From NCBI GenBank assembly GCA_965215615.1, contig OZ244068.1, positions 1,648,223-1,712,222 of the forward strand: a stretch of 64,000 bases of DNA, written 5' to 3'. Below, in pieces: positions 51,769 through 63,196 of the stretch; position 1 is the stretch's first letter; the number at the start of each line of letters is the position of its first letter. The notes beneath the pieces were generated by a model, which searched no databases, was not told the origin of the DNA, and saw only the letters and a list, made by a program, of their open reading frames with translations. The DNA comes from Vicinamibacteria bacterium (GTDB lineage: Bacteria > Acidobacteriota > Vicinamibacteria > Marinacidobacterales > Marinacidobacteraceae). The translations under genes were made by a program, and so were the position numbers.

Positions 51769-54700
51769 TCAGTCCTCCTGATTGGGACGGGGAGTGAGAC
51801 GCGGGGGGCCGCCGGCGCGGAGCTCATCGCCCAGTGGGCCGATGCGGGCACGCACCGCATCCCACGCGGCGATCCGCTCCCCGTACTCGGCGGCGAGCGC
51901 CTCGATGCGGGCAAGGGTTTCCGGTCCGGGGGCCTCGGTGTAGGCATCGAGATTTCGCGCGATCGCCGCCAAACGGGCGAAGAGCGGCCGGGGCCAGGCA
52001 CCGAAACCGGGCCGGCCCTCGTTCCGGGAGAGATTTCGGGCCGCTTCGGTGGCCGCCTCGTGGAATTCGCCGACCCGGGTCTTGAGCTCGCTGTCCGGCT
52101 CTTCGGCGAAGGCCGCGACCAGCGCTTCGGCTTCTTCGGCGGTGGCTTCCGCCTGCTCGTTAGCGCGATGCATCCCGGAAATCATCCCGGCGAGCCGCAG
52201 GAGCGCCGCGTGGTTCGCCCGCCGGTCGGCATCCGAAATCCGGATGCGCGGGTCTTCGGAAACCCGGACGGTCTCCTCGGCGGAGGCCTCGCCGCTCTCG
52301 ATCCGGACCCGGTACTCGCCGGGGAGCGCCCGTGGGCCGGCCGGCGGGCCGCCGAACCCCTGCCCGCCTCCGGGAATCGGCGAGTCGTGACGAAGGTTCC
52401 AGTTCACCCGGTTGAGTCCGGGCTCGAAGTCCGCTTCGAGGGTTCGCACCACCATCCCCCCGGCGTCGCGGACCGTGACCTCAGCCTTGCCGGCGGTGGA
52501 CGCATACACGTGCAGCAGCGCTCCTTCCGGAGGGTTCTCCGCGAGGAAGAACTTGTGACCGGTGTTTCCCTTGTGGTTGTAGATGCGAAAGGCGTGAGCC
52601 TCCCGGATCGGGAAAAGGTGGAGCTCCTTCTCGAAGACCGAGGCATCGAGAGTGGTGAGCGGGGCGATGTCGTCGGCGATCCAGACGCTCCGGCCGTGAG
52701 TGCCGAGAATCAGGTCGTTCTCCCGGGGGTGGATCGCGAGGTCGTCCACCGGGACGGTCGGAATCTGGCCGCCGATCCGGTGCCAGTTCTCTCCCCGGTC
52801 GAGGGTCAGATAGACGCCGAATTCGCCGCCCGTCACCAGGAAGTTCTCGTTCTCGTGGTGCTCGCGGATGACGTTCAGCGCAGCTTCCGGCGGGAGAGCG
52901 GCCGCGAGCGAGCGGAAACTGTCTCCGTAGTCCTCGCTCGCGAACACGTAAGTCGCGTAGTCGTTGTTGCGGTGGCCGTCGAGCGTCACATAGACCCGCG
53001 AAGCCGAATGCGCGGAAGCGACCAGCCGGGTGACATAGGTCTGGTCGGGCACGCCGGGGAGATTCCCGGTCAGGTTTTCCCAGGTTTCGCCGCCGTCCCG
53101 ACTCCGCTGGAGGTTGCCGTCGTCGGCCCCCACATAGATCACCCCCGCTTCCACCGGCGAGACCGCGATGGTCACGATCTGGCCGAAAGTCGAAATCCCG
53201 TCATGGCGGGAGAGGGTGTCCTCGGTCACCGGCGCGCCCATGATCGGCAGTTCATCGCGGTCGAGGCGCTTGGTCAGATCTTCGGTACGGGTCCAGGCAT
53301 CGCCCCGATTCTTCGAGATGAAGAGGCGGTTGCCTCCGTAGAAGACGGTGTCGGGGTCGTGCGGGGAAACCACGATCGGGCTGTTCCAGTCGAAGCGGTA
53401 GCGCTCGCCGTCCGCTTCCGGCTCGGGCCGGATCGTCTTGGTCTCCGAGGTAAGCCGGTTGAGGCGGCGCAGGTTGCCGTTCTGGGATTCGATATAGACG
53501 GTGTCCGGATCGTCCGGAATCACCTGGGTGTAGAAGCCGTCGCCCCCGCCGATCCGGAACCAGTCCTCGTTGCTGATCCCCTGCCGGAAGAGGGTCCGCG
53601 AGGGGCCGGCCCAGCTCCCGTTGTCCTGAAGTCCCCCATAGACGAGGTAGGGAGCGTTCATGTCGTAGCCGATCTCGTAGAACTGGCCGAGCGGGATCGT
53701 GTTCACGAAGTCCCAGCTCCGCCCGCGATCCCACGAGAGATGGATGCCGCCGTCGTTGCCGAGCACCATGTGGTTCGAATCGGCAGGGTTGATCCAGAGC
53801 GCGTGGTGATCCACGTGGATGCGCTGGACCCAGTCGGTATCGAAGGTTCGCCCGCCATCCTGCGAGTAGTGCATCCGGGTTCCCAGCACCCAGATGCGCT
53901 GGTCGTTGTTCGGGTCGATCCGGATCTGACTGTAGTACATCGGCCGCGGGTTGGTGTCGCTCATCCGCTCCCAGGTGAGTCCACGATCCTCCGAGCGGAA
54001 AACGCCGCCTTCGCGGTTTTCGACGATCGCATAGACGACGCGCGGATCGCGGCGATAGACCGCGAGGCCGATCCGGCCGGTGTCGCCTTCGGGGAGGCCG
54101 CCCCCGAGCTTCGTCCAGCTCTCGCCGCCGTCGGTGGTGCGATGGATGCCGCTCCCCGGCCCGCCGCCCGCGAATCCGTAGGCGCGCCGTCGCCGCTGGT
54201 AGAGCGCCGCGTAGAGGATGTCCGGGCTTTCCGGATCCATCGCGATCTCCACCGCTCCGGTGTTCTCGTCCCCGTGAAGCACCCGGTCCCAGCTCGCGCC
54301 GCCGTCGCGGGTCCGATAGACACCCCGCTCGTCGTTCGGCCCCCAGAGATGGCCGAGCGCGGCGACATACACGGTGTCGGGGTCAGCCGGATGGACCAGA
54401 ACCCGGCCGATGTGGTGGGTATCCGCGAGTCCCTTGTGCTCCCAGGTGGTCCCTCCGTCGCCCGACCGATAGACCCCGTTCCCCCACGAACTGCTCTGCC
54501 GGTTCGCGGGCTCCCCGGTCCCCACCCAGACGACCGAGGGATCCGAAGCGGCCACCGCCACCGAGCCGATGGAAGAGACTTCTTCGTTCTGGAACTGCGG
54601 AATCCAGGTCGTGCCGTGGTTCATCGTCTTCCAGAGACCGGCGCTCGCGGTGGCCACCCAGAAGGTCTTCGGATCGGACTCGACGACCGCCAGATCATCG

Positions 54701-54849
54701 ATCCGGCCGCCCATGATGGCCGGGCCGATGTTCCGCCACTCGATCCGGTTCAGGATGGATTCGACCTGCTCGGGGGTCTGCCCTGCCGCCGGAAGCGCCG
54801 GCAACACGAAAGCCACGAAGAGCAGGGCACGTGCGAAAGGAACGTTCAT
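51769..54849 (-). CDS. secreted BNR/Asp-box repeat protein (sortilin/VPS10-like glycoside-hydrolase-type beta-propeller)
   Basis: Signal peptide after the ATG at 54847-54849; multiple 'S.DGG.TW' Asp-box repeats; ~1026 aa. Confidence 0.75.
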   Translation of the reverse strand: MNVPFARALLFVAFVLPALPAAGQTPEQVESILNRIEWRNIGPAIMGGRIDDLAVVESDPKTFWVATASAGLWKTMNHGTTWIPQFQNEEVSSIGSVAVAASDPSVVWVGTGEPANRQSSSWGNGVYRSGDGGTTWEHKGLADTHHIGRVLVHPADPDTVYVAALGHLWGPNDERGVYRTRDGGASWDRVLHGDENTGAVEIAMDPESPDILYAALYQRRRRAYGFAGGGPGSGIHRTTDGGESWTKLGGGLPEGDTGRIGLAVYRRDPRVVYAIVENREGGVFRSEDRGLTWERMSDTNPRPMYYSQIRIDPNNDQRIWVLGTRMHYSQDGGRTFDTDWVQRIHVDHHALWINPADSNHMVLGNDGGIHLSWDRGRSWDFVNTIPLGQFYEIGYDMNAPYLVYGGLQDNGSWAGPSRTLFRQGISNEDWFRIGGGDGFYTQVIPDDPDTVYIESQNGNLRRLNRLTSETKTIRPEPEADGERYRFDWNSPIVVSPHDPDTVFYGGNRLFISKNRGDAWTRTEDLTKRLDRDELPIMGAPVTEDTLSRHDGISTFGQIVTIAVSPVEAGVIYVGADDGNLQRSRDGGETWENLTGNLPGVPDQTYVTRLVASAHSASRVYVTLDGHRNNDYATYVFASEDYGDSFRSLAAALPPEAALNVIREHHENENFLVTGGEFGVYLTLDRGENWHRIGGQIPTVPVDDLAIHPRENDLILGTHGRSVWIADDIAPLTTLDASVFEKELHLFPIREAHAFRIYNHKGNTGHKFFLAENPPEGALLHVYASTAGKAEVTVRDAGGMVVRTLEADFEPGLNRVNWNLRHDSPIPGGGQGFGGPPAGPRALPGEYRVRIESGEASAEETVRVSEDPRIRISDADRRANHAALLRLAGMISGMHRANEQAEATAEEAEALVAAFAEEPDSELKTRVGEFHEAATEAARNLSRNEGRPGFGAWPRPLFARLAAIARNLDAYTEAPGPETLARIEALAAEYGERIAAWDAVRARIGPLGDELRAGGPPRLTPRPNQED

Positions 54850-54907
54850 GGGATTCCTCCTCGTGCGAGCGTACACCACATGGACTCGGGAACCCCGGAG
54901 GCCCGCC

Positions 54908-55168
54908 TTGCGCACCGTGAACCTGCGTTACGCCAAGGCCCACCACTCCCGCCTCGTGCGCGAAGCGGTGAGCGGGCAGCCGTTCGTCATCGCCCGCGCC
55001 GGGAAACCGCTGGTGCGGGTCACGGCCATACCGGAGGAGACCCCGGCGAAGCGACTGATCGGTTGTCTCGACGGGCAGTTCTCGGTTCCCGACGACTTCG
55101 ACACCATGATGGCGGATGAGATCCAGGCGATGTTCGAAGGCAAGCCCAAGGAACCAATCCCGAAATAG
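54908..55168 (+). CDS. Phd/YefM-family antitoxin, orphan upstream copy (TTG start)
   Basis: 'RTVNLRYAKAHHSRLVREAVSGQPFVIARAGKPLVRV...'; ~119 nt identical to copy 2; the ATG is replaced by TTG; no toxin gene follows. Confidence 0.55.
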   Translation: MRTVNLRYAKAHHSRLVREAVSGQPFVIARAGKPLVRVTAIPEETPAKRLIGCLDGQFSVPDDFDTMMADEIQAMFEGKPKEPIPK

Positions 55169-55202
55169 ACTAAGCTGACTGAACTAACCCCGGAGATCCA
55201 CC

Positions 55203-55478
55203 ATGCGCACCGTGAACATGCACCACGCCAAAACCCACCTCTCGCGTCTCGTCCGCGAAGCGGTGAGCGGGCAGCCGTTCGTCATCGCCCGCGCCGGGAA
55301 ACCGCTGGTGCGGGTCACGGCCATACCGGAGGAGACCCCGGCGAAGCGACTGATCGGTTGTCTCGACGGCCAGTTCTCCGTACCGGACGACTTCGACACC
55401 ATGATGGCGGACGAGATTCAGGCGATGTTCGAGGGCAAGTACAAGGGCGTTCTCGATGAGGGACACGAACAGGAGTGA
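55203..55478 (+). CDS. Phd/YefM-family antitoxin (copy 2)
   Basis: 'MRTVNMHHAKTHLSRLVREAVSGQPFVIARAGKPLVRV'; stop overlaps the toxin GTG start (GTGA). Confidence 0.8.
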   Translation: MRTVNMHHAKTHLSRLVREAVSGQPFVIARAGKPLVRVTAIPEETPAKRLIGCLDGQFSVPDDFDTMMADEIQAMFEGKYKGVLDEGHEQE

Positions 55479-55867
55479 AATTTCTTCTCGACACCCACGT
55501 CCTTCTCTGGGCCACGAGCATTCCGGAAAAACGGACCCCGGAACTGCTGGCGCTTCTCGAAGCACCCCGAACGGAGTTGTTTTTCAGTGCGGTATCCATC
55601 TGGGAAGTCGCGATCAAGAACCAGCACCATTCGGGGAACCTCTTTTCTGCCGACACGCTCCGTTCCAGGCTCCTTGAAGTCGGATGCATCGAACTCCCTG
55701 TCACCAGCACCCACGCGGTCGCGATCCGGAACCTCCCTCCGATCCACAAGGATCCATTCGACCGGCTTCTGATCGCCCAGGCTCAGGTAGAAGGAGTCAC
55801 CCTACTGACCGCGGATCGGACCATCGCGCGGTACCCCGGCCCAATCCGCCTGCTCGGGAGGCGCTGA
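55475..55867 (+). CDS. PIN-domain (VapC-family) toxin
   Basis: 'KFLLDTHVLLWA...SIWEVAIK...' PIN acidic residues; GTG start overlapping the antitoxin stop. Confidence 0.8.
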   Translation: MKFLLDTHVLLWATSIPEKRTPELLALLEAPRTELFFSAVSIWEVAIKNQHHSGNLFSADTLRSRLLEVGCIELPVTSTHAVAIRNLPPIHKDPFDRLLIAQAQVEGVTLLTADRTIARYPGPIRLLGRR

Positions 55868-56081
55868 CGCGCGGAGCGTTGCTGATTTCGCCTACGCGAC
55901 GCGGCCTGTCGCGGTGGCCCCGGCTTGATCTGGCGGCAGAGAGGCGGGCCACTCGCTCGGCGATGGCGTGGATGCCATGACGGATCGCCTGACGTTCCTT
56001 GCTGGCGGTCCGCTGCCCGGTGAGGATGAGCCCGGCAAGACTCACCCCGACGGCGAGGATGGCGTAGAACTCGGGGGTCAT
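55797..56081 (-). CDS. possible small membrane protein (hypothetical, weak)
   Basis: ORF with an N-terminal TM helix 'EFYAILAVGVSLAGLILTG'; no clear RBS; overlaps the vapC-like 3' end. Confidence 0.2.
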   Translation of the reverse strand: MTPEFYAILAVGVSLAGLILTGQRTASKERQAIRHGIHAIAERVARLSAARSSRGHRDRPRRVGEISNAPRVSASRAGGLGRGTARWSDPRSVG

Positions 56082-56173
56082 GCGCTGAATCGTACGCCGA
56101 CCCCCCTTTCTGTCAGCACTCGTGAGACACTCGGCCGGATATGGTCAGAACAGTATATCGTCCGCGTCGCCGG

Positions 56174-57679
56174 TCATCGGTCGATGTGCTCTGGGGGCGA
56201 ACCTTTCGGAGGTATCGGAAGAAATCCCTCGTCACCGCTCGTCTGTTCAATACGCCTGTAAATCTCCATCATATTTTCCCCGTAGCGCTTGAGTTGAAGA
56301 TCGCGATCAGCTTGCGCCTCCTGCGATTCGAACTTTTTTTTGACCGACGGAAGTTTCTTCCAATCATCAAGCTCCTTCAGCCCCCCGCGCGTGGCTTCGC
56401 GTACAGCTTCCCACACGATCGGGTTCGTCATGCAGATATTTCTCCAAGGATCTAGTCTCATCTCTTTTCGAATCTCGTCACGTAGTTCTCGCAACGCCTT
56501 TTCTGCTTGAGTGGGATCAAGTCGTTTCTTTTGCTGCCAGTCAACCCGCGCTTTGGCTGACTTCTGTGCCACCCCGGTGTCGCCCGACTCCGCCTTCTGA
56601 CCCGTCTTTCGCACACCGATTCCTTCGGCCGACGTAAGCTTCGCGATGTCCTTGCGCAGACTATCGAGCAGTTCTGCCAGACCGCGTTCGATATGCTCGT
56701 GAACCCTGGCATCGAGCCGACCCATCCGGTCCTTGATTCCAGAATCCAGGCCGTCCAGCCTGGCGCTCCATTCCTTGCGACTCTCGTTCTGCTCCACCGC
56801 ACCTGAGATCTTCCGAAATATGTCTTCGATGCGCTTGTAGATCTTGTGAATCTTTTCGTGTTCTCCGACGACCACAGCCTTGACTTCGTCGTGGACTTTA
56901 CCGACCGTTTTGTGACGCTCTCCAGCAATCAACGCCGCGATCTGATCCGTTATTTCGCTACCTTTCGGCAATTCGTCAAGCGTCTTGATCAGTTCCTGGT
57001 TTTTCTCCTGCCGCTTCTGAAGTTCAACGCGTAATTCCTTCTCGTTCTCCTTCAGCTTGCGAATCGTCTCATCTCGATCTTGAATCTTCTCGAGGAGTTC
57101 TTTGCGGTCGGACTCCGCTCGCTCCCGTTCTTTCGATACAGAACGGGGAGAAGGAAGGTCGTCAACCCTTGCGAGCGCCTCCTGGCACAATTTTTCCAGA
57201 TTTTCGATCTTGTGCTTTTGCGGAAATTCGGGATAGGCCAGGTCCGTCGCATGCAAGATGGCACTGGCCGCAGATCGCAGCATGTGCTTGGTCAGTTGCC
57301 GTGAGTGGTTTGCACAGTTTCGAAGTTCCTGGATATACCAAAAAAGTCGCGAGAGTTCATAGCAGCGACGCTCGATCCATTTCCTATTGATATTGTTGTG
57401 CTTTTCCAGTTTGTCTTCGAACACACCGGGCAATTTCCAGAAGGGCATTCGTCCTTTGGTCGTTTCGATGTCACGGCGCAGGACTTGCAGTGTCTCGAAA
57501 TCCGGGTTCTCTCGTGGATCTCGTACTCTCGGGTTGAAGTTTCGGACACACTTCATTTTGACGAATATATCGACCGTTCTTCGATGAATATCTTCTGCGA
57601 GTTCGATCAGCAGAGTCATATTGTTGGGTTGGAGCAGCTCGTTATAGGCATCTCGGAGCTCCTCGGGTTTCAAGCTCAT
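56174..57679 (-). CDS. 501-aa hypothetical protein: N-terminal HEPN-like domain (Rx4H motif 'RNCANH'), long central coiled coil, C-terminal domain of unknown function
   Basis: GGAGGG SD 7 nt before the ATG at 57677-57679; gene GC ~53% against ~70%; K/E-rich heptad region ~aa 170-330; 'LFWYIQELRNCANHSRQL'. Confidence 0.7.
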   Translation of the reverse strand: MSLKPEELRDAYNELLQPNNMTLLIELAEDIHRRTVDIFVKMKCVRNFNPRVRDPRENPDFETLQVLRRDIETTKGRMPFWKLPGVFEDKLEKHNNINRKWIERRCYELSRLFWYIQELRNCANHSRQLTKHMLRSAASAILHATDLAYPEFPQKHKIENLEKLCQEALARVDDLPSPRSVSKERERAESDRKELLEKIQDRDETIRKLKENEKELRVELQKRQEKNQELIKTLDELPKGSEITDQIAALIAGERHKTVGKVHDEVKAVVVGEHEKIHKIYKRIEDIFRKISGAVEQNESRKEWSARLDGLDSGIKDRMGRLDARVHEHIERGLAELLDSLRKDIAKLTSAEGIGVRKTGQKAESGDTGVAQKSAKARVDWQQKKRLDPTQAEKALRELRDEIRKEMRLDPWRNICMTNPIVWEAVREATRGGLKELDDWKKLPSVKKKFESQEAQADRDLQLKRYGENMMEIYRRIEQTSGDEGFLPIPPKGSPPEHIDR

Positions 57680-57740
57680 CCGCCACCCTCCGAGGTCGTC
57701 AGCAGGGAGCCTTCTTTCACGAGCGCCCCGTAAATTTCCC

Positions 57741-58169
57741 TCATCCTGTCTCTTCGTATTCGTTCAGCATCAACACCGCCTCGCCATGCATGGAGGACGC
57801 GACGGCGTTCGCGAATCGCGAGTCGGCCGTCACTACCTTCGCGCCGACCCGGTGCGCGAGGGCGAGGTACACACAGTCGTACACGGGATGGTCAAGGGAT
57901 AGCGCCAAGCGAACGGCATCCGTGCTGACCGTCTCGTCGCCCGCCCAGCGCACCGGAATGCCAGACAGTTCAGCCATGGCGGTGCTTGCGTGGGCTCGAT
58001 CGATCTCGCCCACCCGCGCCTTGCGCCACAGCGCATTCGCAACCTCGGTCGCCATCAAGCGCGGCGCATGCAGCTCCTGGCCGCTCGCCACCAGTTTTCG
58101 CGCAGCTTCCGAAGTGCGCTCGTCCACCAGCAACTTGACCGCCACGCTGGCATCCATCACGAGACGCAT
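57741..58169 (-). CDS. vapC: PIN-domain toxin VapC
   Basis: 'MRLVMDASVAV...' PIN fold; ATGA overlap with the upstream antitoxin. Confidence 0.8.
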   Translation of the reverse strand: MRLVMDASVAVKLLVDERTSEAARKLVASGQELHAPRLMATEVANALWRKARVGEIDRAHASTAMAELSGIPVRWAGDETVSTDAVRLALSLDHPVYDCVYLALAHRVGAKVVTADSRFANAVASSMHGEAVLMLNEYEETG

Positions 58170-58429
58170 CAGAACCCGTCGCGATGGCCGCGGTCGCGGT
58201 CCTCCCGGATCAGCTCTTCGGCGGGAGTCTGCTTGCTTCCCCTCGTCTTCTCCCGCAGCCGGTCTGATGCCACGAGGAAAGCGGCCCGTTTCCCGGCCAC
58301 GTCGTCGTCGGACGCGCTCTCCAGAATGTGGCGCACCTCACCCTCGAGCGACCGATTGCTCGAGGCGGCGCGACGCTTGAGACGCTCCACGATGTCATCG
58401 CGGAGTTGTCGTACGAGGATCGTCGCCAT
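58169..58429 (-). CDS. vapB: RHH (FitA/StbC-like) antitoxin VapB
   Basis: 'MATILVRQLRDDIVERLKRRAASSNRSLEGEVRHIL'; ATG at 58427-58429. Confidence 0.7.
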   Translation of the reverse strand: MATILVRQLRDDIVERLKRRAASSNRSLEGEVRHILESASDDDVAGKRAAFLVASDRLREKTRGSKQTPAEELIREDRDRGHRDGF

Positions 58430-58504
58430 GGGTTCGTTCCACGAAGCTATCACATGGATAGCGTGCTCCCTGCGCTCGATGGGCGGCGGTCGCACTCACG
58501 CTGC

Positions 58505-61500
58505 CTACTCCGGGATCGTGAGCAGCGAGCCCTCCTTCGCGAGCGAGCCGTCCGCCACCAGCCCGTCGAGCACCTGCCGGAATCGCTCGACAACCGGCTT
58601 CGTCACCCGCTCGAAGCCGAACAGACGCGCCGCCTCCCGGGCCGCAGCTTCCGGCTCGATCCCGTAGCTCACCCGCGCCGCCTGGATCAGCGCGGTCGCG
58701 ATCTCTTCTTTCGCGATCCGCTCCGGCTTGCGGAGGGATGGGGGGAGCTCTCCGCTGCGAACGCGGACTTCCGCAGTCGCGCTCTCTCGCCGCCAGAGGA
58801 ATCCTTCCGCATCCATCCGGCAGAGGCCGCTGCGCTCCGCTTCCGCTACGCCGAGCCGCATCTGCTCGCGGATTCGGGACCCGGTGCGCCCGACACCCGT
58901 CGCCTCGCGGATGCGCAGCAGGACTTCCTCCTCGTGGACCGGACTCTCCACCGCGACCACTTTCCCGATCCAGTCGGCGAACCGGGCGGCCGGCGCCTCG
59001 TGGAGCGGGGTGGCCAGGATGAGAATTCCGAGATCGGCCACTTCGTAGGGGCGGGTGGGCACCGCGACTTCCCGCTCGGCCTCCGGGGCGCGATCGAGCG
59101 GCTTCGCCCGCTGCGGCGGTGCAGGCGGGGCCGGGCCGGTCGTCTCGGAGGCTGCCCGGATAGCCGCCTCCACCTTCTTCATCTCGGTATCCGGGTCGCG
59201 GAACCAGTCGGTGCTCCAGATGCGGTGGATCGTCCAGCCCAGCCCTTCGAGCACCTGCTGGCGGAGCCGGTCGCGATCGCGGGCGGAGCGGGAGCTGTGG
59301 TAGGTCGCGCCGTCACACTCGATCCCGAGGAGGTACCGGCCCGGCTGGCGGGGATCGCGCACCGCCAGATCGATGAAAAAGCCCACCGAGCCGACTTGGT
59401 GCTCCACCTCGAAGCCGAGCGCCCGCACCCGGTCGGCGACCGCTTCCTCGAAGGGAGAATCGGCACCGCGCCCGGTGGTCCGGGGGGTGTCCAGCTTGCC
59501 GGTTTCGGCATATTCGAGGAAGGTCTTGAGCGCGGCGATGCCCCGCGCATCCGAACGCCGCAGATCGAGGTCCGCGCCGGTGAAGTTGCAAAAGACCACC
59601 GAACGCCGCCGCGCCCGGGTGATCAGCACGTTCAGGCGGCGCTCCCCGCCCTCGCGGTTGAGCGGGCCGAAGTTCATCGGCAGGTAGGTTCCTTCGACCT
59701 TGCCGTAGCCGACGCTGATCAGGATCACGTCCCGTTCGTCGCCCTGGACGTTTTCGAGGTTCTTCACGAAGAAGGGCTCTTCCGGGTGCGCGCCGAAGAA
59801 TCCCTCGCCGCCGGATTCCTTCCGTCGCAGGATGTCCACCTCGTCCTCGATGCGCCGCGCCTGGGCGTTGCTGAAGGCGGCGACCCCGAGCGTGAGTCCG
59901 GGTGACTCGCGGGCGTGCTCCATCACCGCCTGCGCGATCCCTTTCGCCTCGGCGATGTTGATCCCCTTGCGTTCGTAGTGGTTTTCGGGGTTCTGGCGGA
60001 AGAGGAGCCCCGCGTCTTTCTTCCCGGCATCGGGGCTCGGGAAAACGATCAACCGATCGTCGTAGAACTCGTGGTTCGAGACCGCGATGAGCGATTCGTG
60101 CCGGCTGCGGTAGTGCCACTTGAGCATCCGCTCCGGCGCACCCTGCGCCGAGAACATCCCGAGGATGCTCTCCATGTCCGCCGTCAGGCTCCCCTCCTCT
60201 TCGTCCTCGTCCACCATCCGGTCGAAGAAGCTGGTGGGCGGGAGCTGCTTGCTGTCGCCGACCACCACCGTCTGCGCGCCGCGAAGAATCGCCCCGAGCG
60301 CGTCCACCGGCCGCACCTGACTCGCCTCGTCGAAAACCACCAGATCGAAGCGGATCGACCCCGGCGGGATGTACTTGGCGATCGAAAGCGGGCTCATCAT
60401 GAAGACCGGCTTGATGCTCTGGATGGCGCGCCCCGCCTCCCGCATGAGACGCCGGACCGGAAGATGGCGGCTCTTCTTCTGGAACTCCCGCTTGAGCACC
60501 CCGAGCTGGCCGCCTCCCTCGTGGCGCGGCAGTCGCTTCCAGTGCTGTTCGGCGATCCGTGCCTGGTTCTCGTGGAATTGCTCGGTATCCAGCTCGCGGA
60601 ACCGCTCGACGACCCCCGCGTGGGTCGCCCCGTCGAACTCGGCGAGCGGGAGGCGATCACGGAACGCGATGTCCAGCCAGCCGCCATAGCAGGCGTGCTC
60701 GAAGCGCGCGGTCAGGTTCCGGGCTGCATCCGCTGAGGAAGCGGCGAGGGCCGCCACCTCGGGGATTCCCTCCTCCGCCCCGCGGTGTTCGTACTGGTTG
60801 AAGCGGACCACATCGAAAGCGGAGTCGGCATCCGCGTGAGCTTCCTGTAGCCAGCCCCCGAGAGCGCCGAAGTTTCGATCCGCGAGCGGCCCCTCGTCAC
60901 CGAGCCGGTCAGGGCGCACTTCGAGAAACTCCTCGAGATCCCCGAGCGCCCGCCCGAATGCCTCTCTGGCGGCATCCGCGGCTTCGGCGGAAGTTTCGAG
61001 CTCAGGGAGGTCGGGCCGGTCGTCGAGAAGGGCGTGGATTTCGGGAGCGATCCGCCCCTCGGCCAGATCCCGGTGAAGCGCCGCGAGCCATTCCGCCGCC
61101 TCGGCGAAACTCCGGTATGTCTCCACCCGGTCCCCGAGACGGAGCCCGGGAAACAGCCGTTCCACGAGGTCGGCAGATTCCGCGACCTCTCGCCGCAGCC
61201 GACGGGCTTCGAGGATCGCGTCGAGGAGCTCGATCTGCTCGGAAACGGCCCCCGTTGCGGTATCGCGGCAGAGCCCGCCCACTTGGCGGCTCGCCTCCCG
61301 GAATCGTCCGGAAAGGAAGCGCCACCACTTGCTACCGACCGTGCGAAGCGTCTGGCGGATAGCCAGCACGTCCTGATCCCAAGCCTCGGGGATCAGAACA
61401 CGGTCGCGCTCTTCGCGGATTTCGGCGTAGCGCCGGGCGGCCTCTGCCACCAGTCCGGCCGGCTCGGAATCGCGATGCCTCGCCCCGAGCAGATCCGGCG

Positions 61501-63196
61501 CTTCCCGGACCCGACGGGCAGTCCGTGCCAGTCGCTCCAGATCCTCCCGCGTCAGCGCGGAAAACCTTTCCTCGCAACCCATCCGGCCGCGGAGTGCTTC
61601 GGAGCCTTCTTCGAGGCGGCGAAGGCTCGCCGTCACGCTCGCGACGAGCTCCCGGAGCCGGGGCGCATCGCTCGGGAGGAAGTTCCGACGGCCCGAGATC
61701 CACCAGCGGTGCCCGCCCGGAAGCCCGATCGTCGCCACCAGGGCCTCGATCTCCCGGACGAGCGCCCGGCGGCGAGCGAAATCCCCGGCAGTCCAGGAAG
61801 CCAGGTTTTCGATCCCGAGCGCGGCCTCTTCCGGATCGAGCCCTTTGGCTCTGAGCGCGGTGATCCGCCCCACGAGGTCGTGGGGAGTCAGCCGGCTCTC
61901 CCCGACCGGAGTGCCCACCGCTTCCGAATAGTCGTTGAGCCGCTCGCGGCTCGCCTCGAGGAGGGCGCGTCGCTCGCCCGTGTCCTGGGTCTTCGGGCAT
62001 CCGAGCGCGAGGGTCCGCTTGAGCTCGTCGAGCACCGCCCGCTTGTTCGTCTGGTGGCTGTGGAGTTCGAGGCACGCCTCCCCCAGATGGACGGAGTCGA
62101 GGCGGCGCTTCACGACCTCGAGCGCGGCCATCTTCTCCGCGACGAACAGGATCGTCTTGCCGCGGGCCAGCGCCTCGCCGATCAGGTTGGTGATCGTCTG
62201 GGACTTGCCGGTTCCGGGCGGCCCCTGGATGACCAGATTGCGTCCGGCCATCGCATCGAGCACCGCGAGCGCCTGCGAGCTGTCGGCATCCACCACCGGA
62301 TGGAGGCCAGCCTCCTCGACATCCCCCGTCCCCTCCCCGCCTGCCTCGAAATCGGGAGGCTCTTCCCGAAAACCCGCCTCGCTGAAGAGCTTCCGGGCGA
62401 CCGGGTGCTCCGAAGGCCCGGCTCCCTCCGGCCAGCTCGCCGGGTCCAGATCCTTGTAGATCAGCAACTTGTTGAAGGAAAAGAAGTCGAGATGGATGTC
62501 GTTCCGCTCGACCGACCAGCCGTTCTGGCTCTCCACCGCGCGTTCGACTTCGGTCAGGTACGTCTCCACGTCCAGCTCGTCTTCGGCCGGCATCCCGGGG
62601 AAACGCACGTCGAAATCGGTTCGCAGCTTGGTTTCGAGCGAGAGATTGGGTTCGATGTCTTCTCCGGTCCAGGAGAGCTTGAAACTCTCGCGACCACCCG
62701 ACCGGACGAGCTGCGCCGGCAGCAGGATCAGAGGGGCGCAGCGGTCGGCTTCGCTCTGATCGGATTCGCGCCAACGGAGCGTTCCGAGGGCGAGGAAGAG
62801 GAAGTTCACCCCCTGCTCTTCGGTCATGAGGCGTGCCTGCCTCGAGGTCTCGCGGAGGCGCAGGTTGAGGTTCGGGAGGGAGAGCGCGGTCTGGAGCTTG
62901 TTGTCGGTGTGCCTCGCGGCAGGTTCCGCATCGTCCGGCGGCTCGGCAAGGATCGCGAGCAGTTCCTCGGGAGCATCCGAGCGGGTTTCTTCCGTGTCTT
63001 CCCCGGGGAGGAAATACATGACGCGCTCCTCGCGGACCAGAATCCGGAACACCTCCCGGGAGAGTTCGTCCACGATCCGAACCCCCCGTCGCCTTCCCGG
63101 ACGGAAGCTCAGTAGCGGGTTGCGAAACGAGAAGTCGAGAACGTCGCGGCGGGAGCCCTCGATGGCGAGCGCGACCGGATCGGCAGCAGAGGACAT
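58505..63196 (-). CDS. 1563-aa DUF4011 / Upf1-DNA2-like SF1 helicase / DUF559 (Vsr-like PD-(D/E)xK) nuclease / DUF3320 fusion protein
   Basis: Walker A 'GPPGTGKSQTI', motif II 'VVFDEASQ', 'VVVGDSKQLPPT', motif VI 'NVLITRARR'; C-terminal 'FFIDLAV...LGIECDGATYHSS' nuclease core. Confidence 0.85.
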   Translation of the reverse strand: MSSAADPVALAIEGSRRDVLDFSFRNPLLSFRPGRRRGVRIVDELSREVFRILVREERVMYFLPGEDTEETRSDAPEELLAILAEPPDDAEPAARHTDNKLQTALSLPNLNLRLRETSRQARLMTEEQGVNFLFLALGTLRWRESDQSEADRCAPLILLPAQLVRSGGRESFKLSWTGEDIEPNLSLETKLRTDFDVRFPGMPAEDELDVETYLTEVERAVESQNGWSVERNDIHLDFFSFNKLLIYKDLDPASWPEGAGPSEHPVARKLFSEAGFREEPPDFEAGGEGTGDVEEAGLHPVVDADSSQALAVLDAMAGRNLVIQGPPGTGKSQTITNLIGEALARGKTILFVAEKMAALEVVKRRLDSVHLGEACLELHSHQTNKRAVLDELKRTLALGCPKTQDTGERRALLEASRERLNDYSEAVGTPVGESRLTPHDLVGRITALRAKGLDPEEAALGIENLASWTAGDFARRRALVREIEALVATIGLPGGHRWWISGRRNFLPSDAPRLRELVASVTASLRRLEEGSEALRGRMGCEERFSALTREDLERLARTARRVREAPDLLGARHRDSEPAGLVAEAARRYAEIREERDRVLIPEAWDQDVLAIRQTLRTVGSKWWRFLSGRFREASRQVGGLCRDTATGAVSEQIELLDAILEARRLRREVAESADLVERLFPGLRLGDRVETYRSFAEAAEWLAALHRDLAEGRIAPEIHALLDDRPDLPELETSAEAADAAREAFGRALGDLEEFLEVRPDRLGDEGPLADRNFGALGGWLQEAHADADSAFDVVRFNQYEHRGAEEGIPEVAALAASSADAARNLTARFEHACYGGWLDIAFRDRLPLAEFDGATHAGVVERFRELDTEQFHENQARIAEQHWKRLPRHEGGGQLGVLKREFQKKSRHLPVRRLMREAGRAIQSIKPVFMMSPLSIAKYIPPGSIRFDLVVFDEASQVRPVDALGAILRGAQTVVVGDSKQLPPTSFFDRMVDEDEEEGSLTADMESILGMFSAQGAPERMLKWHYRSRHESLIAVSNHEFYDDRLIVFPSPDAGKKDAGLLFRQNPENHYERKGINIAEAKGIAQAVMEHARESPGLTLGVAAFSNAQARRIEDEVDILRRKESGGEGFFGAHPEEPFFVKNLENVQGDERDVILISVGYGKVEGTYLPMNFGPLNREGGERRLNVLITRARRRSVVFCNFTGADLDLRRSDARGIAALKTFLEYAETGKLDTPRTTGRGADSPFEEAVADRVRALGFEVEHQVGSVGFFIDLAVRDPRQPGRYLLGIECDGATYHSSRSARDRDRLRQQVLEGLGWTIHRIWSTDWFRDPDTEMKKVEAAIRAASETTGPAPPAPPQRAKPLDRAPEAEREVAVPTRPYEVADLGILILATPLHEAPAARFADWIGKVVAVESPVHEEEVLLRIREATGVGRTGSRIREQMRLGVAEAERSGLCRMDAEGFLWRRESATAEVRVRSGELPPSLRKPERIAKEEIATALIQAARVSYGIEPEAAAREAARLFGFERVTKPVVERFRQVLDGLVADGSLAKEGSLLTIPE

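What the first reader, a model, noticed from the sequence alone, without database searches (positions are those of the whole stretch)
56174..57679. Low-GC gene for a 501-aa HEPN-like / coiled-coil protein embedded between toxin-antitoxin modules
The ORF has ~53% GC in a ~70% GC genome and a strong GGAGGG SD. Its N-terminal ~165 aa contain 'LFWYIQELRNCANHSRQLTKHML', with an Rx4H arrangement characteristic of HEPN RNase active sites (as in Abi, RnlA/LsoA and Cas13-type HEPN domains). A ~160-aa K/E-rich coiled coil follows, then a C-terminal domain ('DPWRNICMTNPIVWEAV...') that matches nothing I recognise. It is flanked by a Phd/PIN module on one side and vapBC plus a giant helicase-nuclease on the other. 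This fits an abortive-infection or RNA-targeting defence effector of an undescribed family.
Basis: inference. Interest (0 to 1): 0.75.

Follow-up and report, generated by a model that had tools for sequence, protein, structure and literature searches.

The report
Rare HEPN-like coiled-coil accessory gene
This low-GC gene encodes a member of a very rare, unnamed protein family that most likely is a HEPN-type RNA-cutting toxin/defence effector, it is missing from a sister genome, and it once sat directly behind an anti-phage helicase gene; its function has not been tested.

Summary

The protein matches no Pfam, NCBIfam, PADLOC, PHROG or PDB model. An exhaustive search of 1.84 billion proteins found only about 25 distant relatives. 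They share three parts:
- an N-terminal helical domain whose only invariant residues are R120, N121 and H125 (RNxxxH);
- a helical/acidic middle of variable length;
- a conserved 5-helix C-terminal domain (WENICM..PIV..YG..MM.IYRRVE).

dN/dS is 0.1-0.2 in all three regions. The gene has lower GC than its host in all 8 loci and has no conserved partner gene.

A sister genome (96-98% identical flanks) lacks vapBC and this gene. A decayed copy of the helicase 3' end, with an ATGA stop/start overlap, sits just upstream of the gene, so it was once coupled to the ProA/Hhe-like helicase.

Verdict: a new family or architecture within a known kind. A defence role is plausible but only circumstantial.

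The parts
56174..57679 (-). Gene for the 501-aa protein: HEPN-like N-domain, helical middle, conserved C-domain
   Evidence: ORF. Family of about 25 distant homologs. dN/dS 0.145 between two homologs. GC 0.52 against 0.67.
57155..57679 (-). N-terminal helical domain (aa 1-175), HEPN-like. Proposed helix-1 is aa 5-15, helix-2 aa 18-41, insert aa 42-98, helix-3 aa 99-125, helix-4 aa 131-147, plus an extra helix aa 155-173
   Evidence: AF2 model pLDDT 89.6, pTM 0.84. A3 alignment: the only invariant residues are R120, N121, H125. Weak Pfam HEPN_MAE_28990 hit and PADLOC Cas13-ApeA hit.
57305..57322 (-). Codons for R120-N121-C-A-N-H125, the putative catalytic RNxxxH motif
   Evidence: Invariant in 18/18 homologs. 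Lies at the C-terminal end of helix 99-125, the position described for HEPN in PMC3710099.
56630..57151 (-). Helical K/E/R-rich middle region (aa 177-350), three long predicted helices; its length varies across the family
   Evidence: AF2 helices 177-234, 241-295, 300-350. 48% K+E+R+D+Q. The equivalent region in homologs has dN/dS 0.10.
56534..56629 (-). Predicted disordered linker (aa 351-382)
   Evidence: pLDDT <50. Homologs carry acidic low-complexity stretches here.
56258..56518 (-). Conserved C-terminal five-helix domain (aa 388-474), signature PW(E/R)NICMxxPIV...W..LP.V...YG..MM.IYRR(V/I)E
   Evidence: A2 alignment mean column identity 50%, invariant N, W, Q, M, Y. pLDDT about 92-97. No Pfam or PDB sequence match. 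Only a 20-column, 5%-probability hhalign match to helix 1 of the RecQ HRDC domain.
57672..57731 (-). A': decayed copy of the helicase gene's 3' end (reads GALVKEGSLLTTSEGGG*). It supplies the SD sequence, and its stop codon overlaps the target ATG (GGATGA)
   Evidence: blastn of sister L070:14655-14709 against window 57725-57672: 87% identity, E=3e-10. Alignments and translation.
58494..58551 (-). A: the authentic 3' end of the helicase gene, direct-repeat partner of A'
57741..58495 (-). vapBC module (FitA-like RHH antitoxin, probable start at 58426; PIN toxin 58169-57741), lying exactly between A and A'
   Evidence: Pfam hits. Position relative to the repeats. Absent from the sister genome.
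56100..58493 (.). 2,394-bp segment (vapBC + A' + target gene + 74 bp) absent from the sister genome, whose flanks are 95.8% and 98.4% identical
58505..63196 (-). 1563-aa DUF4011 / SF1 (AAA_11/AAA_12) helicase / MTES_1575 REase / DUF3320 protein; former immediate upstream neighbour of the target gene
   Evidence: PADLOC PDC-S37 1809 bits, Hhe 778 bits. NCBIfam 'anti-phage protein ProA' 1425 bits, cutoff 1500. Pfam domains.

Best explanation
The gene encodes a stand-alone member of a rare, unnamed family in the HEPN superfamily.

Shown:
- It is a real, selected protein with three conserved parts.
- The only invariant residues of its N-domain form RNxxxH, at the position HEPN active sites occupy.
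- It is an accessory, compositionally foreign gene, present in this genome and absent from a close relative.
- It was formerly fused stop-to-start (ATGA) behind a ProA/Hhe/PDC-S37-type helicase-nuclease gene; a vapBC cassette now separates them.

Inferred mechanism:
- The N-domain is a metal-independent HEPN endoribonuclease. Like other HEPN enzymes, it should be active only when two Rx4H sites are brought together in a dimer.
- The long helical middle provides or regulates that dimerisation. It may also hold the enzyme in an inactive state.
- The conserved C-terminal helical domain binds a nucleic acid or another ligand, possibly a phage-derived trigger.
- Activation leads to RNA cleavage and growth arrest (abortive-infection or toxin logic).
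- No antitoxin is needed because the enzyme is autoinhibited.
For: - Family and selection: 25 homologs match both the N- and C-terminal parts. dN/dS is 0.21 (N-domain), 0.10 (middle) and 0.13 (C-domain) at dS 0.46.
- HEPN: R120, N121 and H125 are the only invariant residues in 18 sequences that are 17-31% identical to the query. The N after R is the typical polar residue (PMC3710099).
- Fold: in the AF2 model (pLDDT 89.6, pTM 0.84) the motif ends helix 99-125 and starts the loop to helix 131-147, with a 57-residue insert between the second and third core helices. quotes this as distinguishing HEPN from other four-helix bundles.
- Weak model hits: across 18 N-domains, the only PADLOC hit is Cas13-ApeA (E=0.011), and one of only 5 Pfam hits is HEPN_MAE_28990 (E=0.021), covering 125 residues that include the motif.
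- Accessory and foreign: gene GC is below its surroundings in 8/8 loci. The sister genome lacks it.
- Context: TA, Abi, transposase or defence-type genes lie within about 5 kb in most of 12 loci.
- Modularity: P0023 has the same N-domain with an unrelated C-terminus.
- Stand-alone: no conserved neighbour in any locus.
Against: - Profile searches of PDB sequences and hhalign against three Pfam-annotated HEPN/NTase_sub_bind proteins found nothing.
- The second HEPN feature, a conserved acidic residue or Ex3[KR] in helix-2, is not conserved in the family.
- The weak model hits are individually insignificant.
- Some homologs sit among housekeeping genes (L071, L002). None is on a phage, plasmid or viral contig.
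- No background rate of TA or defence genes was computed for these genomes, which look TA-rich.
- Dimerisation, RNase activity, toxicity and phage defence are all untested.
Confidence: 0.55

Rival explanations
1. It is the effector subunit of a two-gene helicase + RNase system. The HEPN/coiled-coil protein docks through its helical region or C-domain onto the upstream DUF4011/UPF1-like helicase-nuclease, and it is switched on when the helicase senses foreign nucleic acid. This is analogous to the CnuH-CnuE modules of CoCoNuT systems.
For: A', directly upstream of the gene, is a remnant of a helicase 3' end whose stop codon overlaps the gene's ATG. So the two genes were once translationally coupled. 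They are still on the same strand with no terminator-like site between them. PMC11090510 reports that UPF1-like SF1 helicases are typically followed by an effector gene with coiled coils and a HEPN domain, and that one subtype has a Vsr-like nuclease fused to the helicase, as here (AAA_11/AAA_12 + MTES_1575).
Against: None of the other 11 family loci has such a helicase next to the gene; only L004 has a UvrD-type helicase, three genes away. The sister genome keeps the helicase without this gene. Plasmid homologs of the helicase have no family member downstream. PADLOC classes the helicase as a single-gene candidate, PDC-S37. The domain order is the reverse of CnuE, no wHTH was detected, and there are no McrB or McrC genes.
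Confidence: 0.15
2. It is a non-catalytic nucleic-acid-binding or scaffolding coiled-coil protein. It could, for example, be a regulator or a structural protein of an unrecognised mobile element, in which RNxxxH serves binding, not cleavage, and has nothing to do with defence.
For: There is no significant structural or profile match to any HEPN. The helix-2 acidic residue is not conserved. Several homologs lie between metabolic genes. The middle region is under the strongest constraint, dN/dS 0.10, as expected for a structural coiled coil.
Against: Invariance of exactly R, N and H in an otherwise highly divergent helical domain argues for chemistry, not packing. According to PMC3710099, HEPN domains that lost catalysis have also lost the motif. 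No element boundaries, integrase or structural genes accompany the gene in any locus.
Confidence: 0.2
3. It is the third component or a cargo of the adjacent vapBC toxin-antitoxin cassette. It would be acquired together with vapBC and controlled by it, for example by being repressed by VapB or acting as a second toxin.
For: vapBC and the gene are missing together from the sister genome. The intergenic distance is 61 bp, on the same strand, with no promoter-like site of its own.
Against: vapBC has host-like GC (0.65; GC3 0.78) while the gene does not (GC3 0.60). The A/A' repeat brackets vapBC alone, which indicates a separate insertion event. No homolog has an adjacent RHH/PIN pair in the same arrangement.
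Confidence: 0.07

Closest known systems
HEPN superfamily, MAE_28990/MAE_18760-like family (Pfam PF18737) and the Abi2/Swt1-type 'RNxxxH' HEPN families (Anantharaman et al. 2013, PMC3710099)
   Same: All-helical domain of HEPN size plus an insert. [quoted passage not shown] The residue after R is polar. A weak Pfam match (E=0.021) runs over 125 residues. These families are found in conflict and defence contexts and are fused to variable partner domains.
   Different: No significant sequence or structure match. No conserved helix-2 acidic residue. The HEPN domain is N-terminal and followed by a long helical region and a C-domain found nowhere else. There are no ParB, methylase or R-M genes alongside.
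CnuE effectors of CoCoNuT type II/III systems (PMC11090510)
   Same: A protein combining coiled-coil segments with an RxxxxH HEPN domain, encoded immediately downstream of an SF1 UPF1-like helicase. A Vsr-like PD-(D/E)xK nuclease is associated with that helicase.
   Different: The domain order is reversed: CnuE is wHTH, coiled coil, HEPN, while here it is HEPN, helices, helical C-domain. No wHTH was detected. No McrB/McrC (CnuB/CnuC) genes are present. Linkage to a helicase is seen only in this lineage. No sequence similarity was tested or found.
Single-protein HEPN abortive-infection/toxin RNases (RnlA/LsoA, AbiD/AbiF, AbiJ, ApeA, PrrC/RloC)
   Same: A stand-alone or nearly stand-alone HEPN protein with extra sensor or regulatory domains. 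The proposed logic is the same: latent RNase, trigger, RNA cleavage, growth arrest. The only PADLOC hit is the Cas13-ApeA model (E=0.011).
   Different: No PADLOC, Pfam or NCBIfam model of any of these reaches significance. There is no cognate antitoxin (RnlB-like) and no ATPase domain (PrrC/RloC). The C-terminal domain is unique.
HRDC domain (RecQ, RNase D)
   Same: About 85 residues with five helices. The pattern 'L..LR..I..e..v.Pw.i.....i..a......l..w..l..V......YG...m.iy' resembles the HRDC consensus by eye. The best hhalign match to E. coli RecQ falls on helix 1 of its HRDC domain.
   Different: The match spans only 20 columns at 5% probability. There was no match to RNase D, to Pfam HRDC or to any PDB HRDC sequence. 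The last helix is much longer. The fold could not be searched separately.

Membership tests
HEPN superfamily | Conserved Rx4-6H motif | tested here: met
   R120 and H125 (Rx4H) are invariant in 18/18 family N-domains that are 17-31% identical to the query.
HEPN superfamily | Polar residue (N, D or H) immediately after the conserved R | tested here: met
   N121 is invariant. The criterion is quoted from PMC3710099.
HEPN superfamily | [quoted passage not shown] | tested here: met
   In the AF2 model (pLDDT 89.6), helix 99-125 ends with RNCANH, then loop 126-130, then helix 131-147. This rests on a predicted structure, not a solved one.
HEPN superfamily | [quoted passage not shown] | tested here: met
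   Residues 42-98 form a loop, a short helix, a beta-hairpin and two short helices, lying between helix 18-41 and helix 99-125.
HEPN superfamily | Second conserved acidic residue in helix-2, often Ex3[KR] (present in many but not all families) | tested here: not met
   The query has E29-x3-R33, but the column is not conserved in the family. The feature is optional according to PMC3710099.
HEPN superfamily | Significant structural similarity to solved HEPN domains | tested here: inconclusive
HEPN superfamily | Significant profile match to a HEPN family model | tested here: inconclusive
   Only sub-threshold hits: PF18737 at E=0.021, 15.5 bits against a cutoff of 26.8, and PADLOC Cas13-ApeA at E=0.011. 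Nothing from hhalign against three HEPN-clan proteins.
HEPN superfamily | Metal-independent RNase activity dependent on R and H; active as a dimer | not testable with these tools
   Needs biochemistry or multimer modelling.
HRDC domain (for the C-terminal domain) | Sequence or profile match to HRDC | tested here: not met
   No Pfam HRDC hit in 21 members at E<=10. No PDB HRDC hit. hhalign against RecQ gave 20 columns at 5% probability, and nothing against RNase D.
HRDC domain (for the C-terminal domain) | Five-helix HRDC/SAM-like fold | tested here: inconclusive
   AF2 gives five helices with HRDC-like order and lengths.
CoCoNuT CnuH-CnuE module | Effector gene immediately downstream of a UPF1-like SF1 helicase | tested here: met
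   Met for the ancestral arrangement only: A' shows a helicase stop overlapping the gene's ATG. vapBC now intervenes.
CoCoNuT CnuH-CnuE module | CnuE architecture of N-terminal elongated wHTH, coiled coil, C-terminal HEPN; McrB/McrC homologs (CnuB/CnuC) in the operon | tested here: not met
   The HEPN-like domain is N-terminal and no wHTH was found. Upstream of the helicase is a permease gene, with no McrBC.
Type II toxin-antitoxin system | Conserved adjacent antitoxin gene | tested here: not met
   No conserved neighbour in 12 loci.

The most novel reading that the evidence does not exclude
The family is a previously unrecognised single-gene anti-phage (abortive-infection) RNase with a new architecture: HEPN, then a helical ruler, then a novel ligand-binding domain. 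It is spread by horizontal transfer among uncultured, possibly sponge-associated, bacteria. In this lineage it was recruited as a translationally coupled RNA-targeting effector of a Hhe/ProA-type helicase-nuclease. That would be an independent, domain-inverted counterpart of the CnuH-CnuE helicase/HEPN pairing.
Probability: 0.3. Interest if true: 0.6.

Novelty: new variant of a known kind. Interest (0 to 1): 0.5.

Why it matters
If the prediction holds, this adds a family and a new domain architecture to the HEPN RNase toxins, a group that has already given Cas13, Csm6, RnlA and ApeA. The family has about 25 sequence clusters among 1.84 billion representatives and is seen only in uncultured bacteria, so standard defence-finder models miss it entirely. 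The fossil ATGA junction with a Hhe/ProA-like helicase-nuclease gives a concrete, testable hint that DNA-sensing helicases can be paired with RNA-cutting effectors outside the CoCoNuT systems. The sister-genome comparison also documents stepwise build-up of a small defence/TA island at one site. The finding is a bioinformatic prediction about a rare family, not a change to any general principle.

Tried and rejected
- The word-indexed homolog search returned only the query itself or one fragment. Coiled-coil and acidic words swamped the candidate list. The exhaustive phmmer search was needed.
- Fold search of the full-length model was dominated by coiled-coil proteins and was uninformative.
- The weak PDB hit 9pfx 'PbrRohS', sharing 'WEgICM', was rejected. 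RohS is a heme-oxygenase-like N-oxygenase.
- The tRNA-ligase and apolipoprotein PDB hits are low-complexity or coiled-coil noise.
- The idea that the C-domain is HRDC could not be substantiated.
- AAA_14/DUF4143 ATPase as a partner was rejected. It is near the gene in 4/12 loci, but its position and orientation vary, the copies are mostly 24-36% identical to each other, and the window has none.
- The strict WENICMxxPIV DNA pattern gave 3 true hits in reference genomes, 0 in viral contigs and 0 in JGI metagenomes. The looser pattern gave 56 metagenome matches, all false by HMM check.
- No Rfam family is present in the window.
- No promoter or terminator signal is specific to the gene, and the 3' UTR has no stable structure.
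- A literature search for 'ProA' as a named defence system found nothing.
- The small ORF 55797-56081 (-) downstream has no family hit and is not called in the sister genome. It is not treated as a partner.
Full report
**1. Observation.** The ORF is real. It lies at 56174..57679 on the minus strand, has an ATG start and encodes 501 aa. A GGAGGG Shine-Dalgarno sequence lies 7 nt upstream of the ATG. The gene's GC is 0.522 against 0.673 for the rest of the window. Its GC3 is 0.60, against 0.72-0.84 in the neighbouring genes. So the dip is not only an effect of K/E-rich amino-acid composition.

- Phd (55203-55478) and PIN (55475-55867) on the + strand;
- a FitA-like RHH antitoxin and a PIN toxin (58495-57741) on the - strand;
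- a 1563-aa DUF4011 / AAA_11-AAA_12 SF1 helicase / MTES_1575 REase / DUF3320 protein (58505-63196, - strand). It scores 1809 bits on PADLOC PDC-S37 and 1425 bits on NCBIfam 'anti-phage protein ProA' (cutoff 1500), and it also matches Hhe.

The quoted peptide contains two Rx4H matches. In a single sequence that is what chance gives: 2 observed against 1.3 expected, P=0.38.

**2. What it is: a rare family.** The protein matches no model in Pfam, NCBIfam, PADLOC or PHROGs and no PDB sequence. The word-indexed search of 5.8 billion proteins returned only the protein itself. An exhaustive phmmer search of 1.84 billion cluster representatives found 25 relatives (E 2e-31 to 9e-4). Most are 370-460 aa and match both the N-terminal and C-terminal parts.

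A degenerate DNA pattern for the family signature gave 3 true hits among about 185,000 species genomes, all MAGs: two Gammaproteobacteria and one Spirochaetales. It gave none in IMG/VR viral contigs and no true hit in JGI metagenomes. tblastn found nothing in 50,697 phage or 72,556 plasmid records.

The closest homolog pair for which I had DNA (87% aa identity) gives dN/dS of 0.145 overall: 0.21 for the N-domain, 0.10 for the middle and 0.13 for the C-domain, at dS 0.46. All three regions, including the helical middle, are therefore under purifying selection.

**3. Anatomy.** The AlphaFold2 model built with the family alignment has mean pLDDT 80.5. It shows:
- an N-terminal helical domain, aa 1-175, block-mean pLDDT mostly 83-97, with one low-confidence loop (about 56) around aa 51-60;
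- three long helices, 177-350;
- a disordered linker, 351-382;
- a five-helix C-terminal domain, 388-474, pLDDT about 92-97.

Modelled alone, the N-domain reaches pLDDT 89.6 and pTM 0.84.

In the N-domain alignment of 18 sequences (17-31% identical to the query), the only invariant residues besides the initiator Met are R120, N121 and H125.

The C-domain is the best-conserved part, with mean column identity of 50%. Its signature is PWENICMxxPIV...W..LP.V...YG..MM.IYRRVE.

The middle region varies in length. In several homologs part of it is replaced by poly-acidic tracts. One homolog, P0023, joins the same N-domain to an unrelated C-terminal half, so the N-domain behaves as a separable module.

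**4. Is the N-domain HEPN?** Anantharaman et al. 2013 (PMC3710099) list the defining features:
- a four-helix bundle;
[quoted passage not shown] - a polar residue (N, D or H) after the R;
- an optional acidic residue in helix-2.

The model meets the first four. Helix 18-41 is followed by a 57-residue insert. Helix 99-125 ends in R120-N-C-A-N-H125. Then come loop 126-130 and helix 131-147. The helix-2 acidic residue is not conserved.

Two curated libraries each gave a weak hit to a HEPN model. Across the 18 N-domains, one of only five Pfam hits is HEPN_MAE_28990: P0021 residues 25-149 align to model positions 77-196 of 211, at E=0.021. The single PADLOC hit among 5,027 models is Cas13-ApeA, at E=0.011. 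Neither is significant alone. HEPN-type models are a small minority of each library (roughly 0.1-0.2% of Pfam by my own estimate), so a hit from each is unlikely by chance.

Several tests failed to support the assignment:
- Foldseek gave no hit better than E=0.57.
- The family profile found no HEPN in PDB sequences.
- hhalign against three Pfam-annotated HEPN-clan proteins from the fetched loci found nothing.

The 2013 paper itself stresses that HEPN families share little beyond the motif, so these negatives are weak. I put HEPN membership at about 0.75.

**5. The C-domain.** By eye its pattern resembles HRDC. The objective tests did not confirm this:
- no Pfam HRDC hit in 21 members;
- no PDB HRDC sequence hit;
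- an hhalign match to E. coli RecQ that falls on helix 1 of its HRDC domain, but covers only 20 columns at 5% probability;
- nothing against RNase D.

I could not fold-search the domain on its own. It remains a conserved helical domain of unknown fold. 'HRDC-like nucleic-acid binding' is only a lead.

**6. Genomic behaviour.** In all eight loci where it could be measured, the family gene has lower GC than its surroundings, by 3 to 16 points.

No neighbouring gene is conserved across 12 independent loci. What recurs nearby is the typical content of variable islands:
- PIN/Phd, MNT/HEPN and HigBA toxin-antitoxin pairs;
- AbiEii;
- IS21 and DDE transposase genes;
- AAA_14/DUF4143 and AAA_16/22 ATPases;
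- an HD/dGTPase-like gene.

Two loci (L002, L071) are mainly metabolic. I computed no background rate, and these genomes look TA-rich. The neighbourhood evidence is therefore suggestive only.

**7. The sister genome: the most informative result.** The helicase has a >90%-identical copy in a second 2.9-Mb contig. That locus is colinear with the window, at 95.8% identity on the helicase side and 98.4% on the other side. It lacks window 58493..56100, which is 2,394 bp holding vapB, vapC and the 501-aa gene. Only 17 unaligned bases take its place.

Within the window-specific segment, the 60 bp immediately upstream of the target gene (A', 57731-57672) is a decayed copy of the helicase's own 3' end (A, 58551-58494). 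blastn against the sister's helicase end gives 87% identity and E=3e-10. In frame, A' reads GALVKEGSLLTTSEGGG*, compared with the real C-terminus DGSLAKEGSLLTIPE* (sister...TIPEDGA*). Its TGA stop overlaps the target's ATG (GGATGAGC). The gene's SD sequence and start codon therefore lie in a fossil helicase 3' end.

The vapBC cassette (762 bp, host-like GC) lies exactly between A and A'. The simplest history is that the target gene once sat directly behind a ProA/Hhe-like helicase gene and was translationally coupled to it. vapBC was inserted later, duplicating the junction.

The sister genome either lost the gene or never received it. At the same place it has GCATGAGTCTT..., a 14-codon ORF that also begins MSL. 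This weakly favours loss.

There is no promoter-like or terminator-like signal between vapC and the gene. It is probably still co-transcribed with the upstream genes.

**8. Mechanism.**
*Shown:* the gene is real, selected, accessory and compositionally foreign, and it has a conserved RNxxxH in a HEPN-like position.
*Inferred from established HEPN biochemistry* (metal-independent RNases whose R and H are catalytic and whose active sites form at dimer interfaces; PMC3710099, PMC8266594): the N-domain is a latent endoribonuclease. The constrained helical region mediates or gates dimerisation. The conserved C-domain binds a nucleic acid or trigger. Activation causes RNA cleavage and growth arrest. 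I give this stand-alone HEPN toxin/defence reading 0.55.

The main rivals are:
- a helicase-coupled effector analogous to CnuH-CnuE. PMC11090510 reports that UPF1-like helicases typically have a downstream coiled-coil HEPN effector, and that one subtype has a Vsr-like nuclease fused to the helicase. Confidence 0.15, because no other family member is linked to such a helicase.
- a non-catalytic binding or scaffold protein. Confidence 0.2.
- cargo of the vapBC cassette. Confidence 0.07.

**9. Novelty and verdict.** This is not a member of any named family. It is best described as a new family and architecture within the HEPN kind. It is rare, seen only in uncultured bacteria, and invisible to current defence-annotation models.

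Its HEPN inference is probably right, though for reasons it could not have known. Its defence interpretation is plausible but unproven.

Interest is moderate (0.5). The architecture and the fossil helicase coupling are new and testable. However, HEPN toxins in defence/TA islands are a familiar theme, and nothing here has been shown experimentally.

Noticed in passing
window 54891-55151 and 55186-55446 (+): Tandem duplication of the Phd antitoxin gene (261 nt, 91% identical) upstream of a single PIN toxin gene. The sister genome has the same two Phd genes.
   Followed up: partly
window 58494-58551 and 57672-57731 (-); sister L070:14655-14723: The window helicase ends ...TIPE* (TAG), while the sister's ends ...TIPEDGA* with an ATGA overlap onto a 14-codon ORF, MSLQRRVGGVRFSA*. 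A degenerate ~60-bp direct repeat of this junction brackets the vapBC cassette, an unusual footprint for a TA-cassette insertion.
   Followed up: yes
L001:8791-9909, L008:1769-2923, L005:3433-4692, L071:2420-3649: AAA_14/DUF4143 ATPase genes lie within 5.5 kb of the family gene in 4 of 12 loci, directly adjacent in two. The window has none. They are 24-58% identical to each other and sit in varying positions, so they are probably co-residents of variable islands and not partners.
   Followed up: partly
L002, L003, L008, L072, L073/L074, L009, L010 (record names): Study and MAG codes of many homolog contigs (PANK22-1, ROBB21-1, ENGE20-1, SB0662_bin_60, RHO2_bin_33) look like marine-sponge microbiome projects. 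The family may be enriched in sponge symbionts. This is inferred from the names only.
   Followed up: no
window 58505-63196 (-); plasmid loci L075-L077: The helicase-nuclease scores just under the NCBIfam 'ProA' cutoff (1425 against 1500 bits) and lacks the first ~360 model positions. Plasmid homologs at 43% identity sit next to SIR2, DUF262, WYL and RecD-like genes, with no conserved downstream gene.
   Followed up: partly
window 55797-56081 (-): A 94-aa ORF lies just downstream of the target gene. It has a hydrophobic N-terminus (MTPEFYAILAVGVSLAGLILTG) and overlaps the convergent PIN gene. It has no family match and is not called as a gene in the sister genome, so it may be spurious in this high-GC DNA.
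   Followed up: partly
P0023 / L071:8001-9260: One homolog has the same RNxxxH N-domain fused to an unrelated C-terminal half. Its start overlaps the preceding short-chain dehydrogenase gene by 4 bp, and it sits among housekeeping genes.
   Followed up: no
window 51769-54915 (-): A 1048-aa Sortilin/Vps10 and BNR-repeat protein is conserved in the sister genome. It is unrelated to the finding.
   Followed up: no
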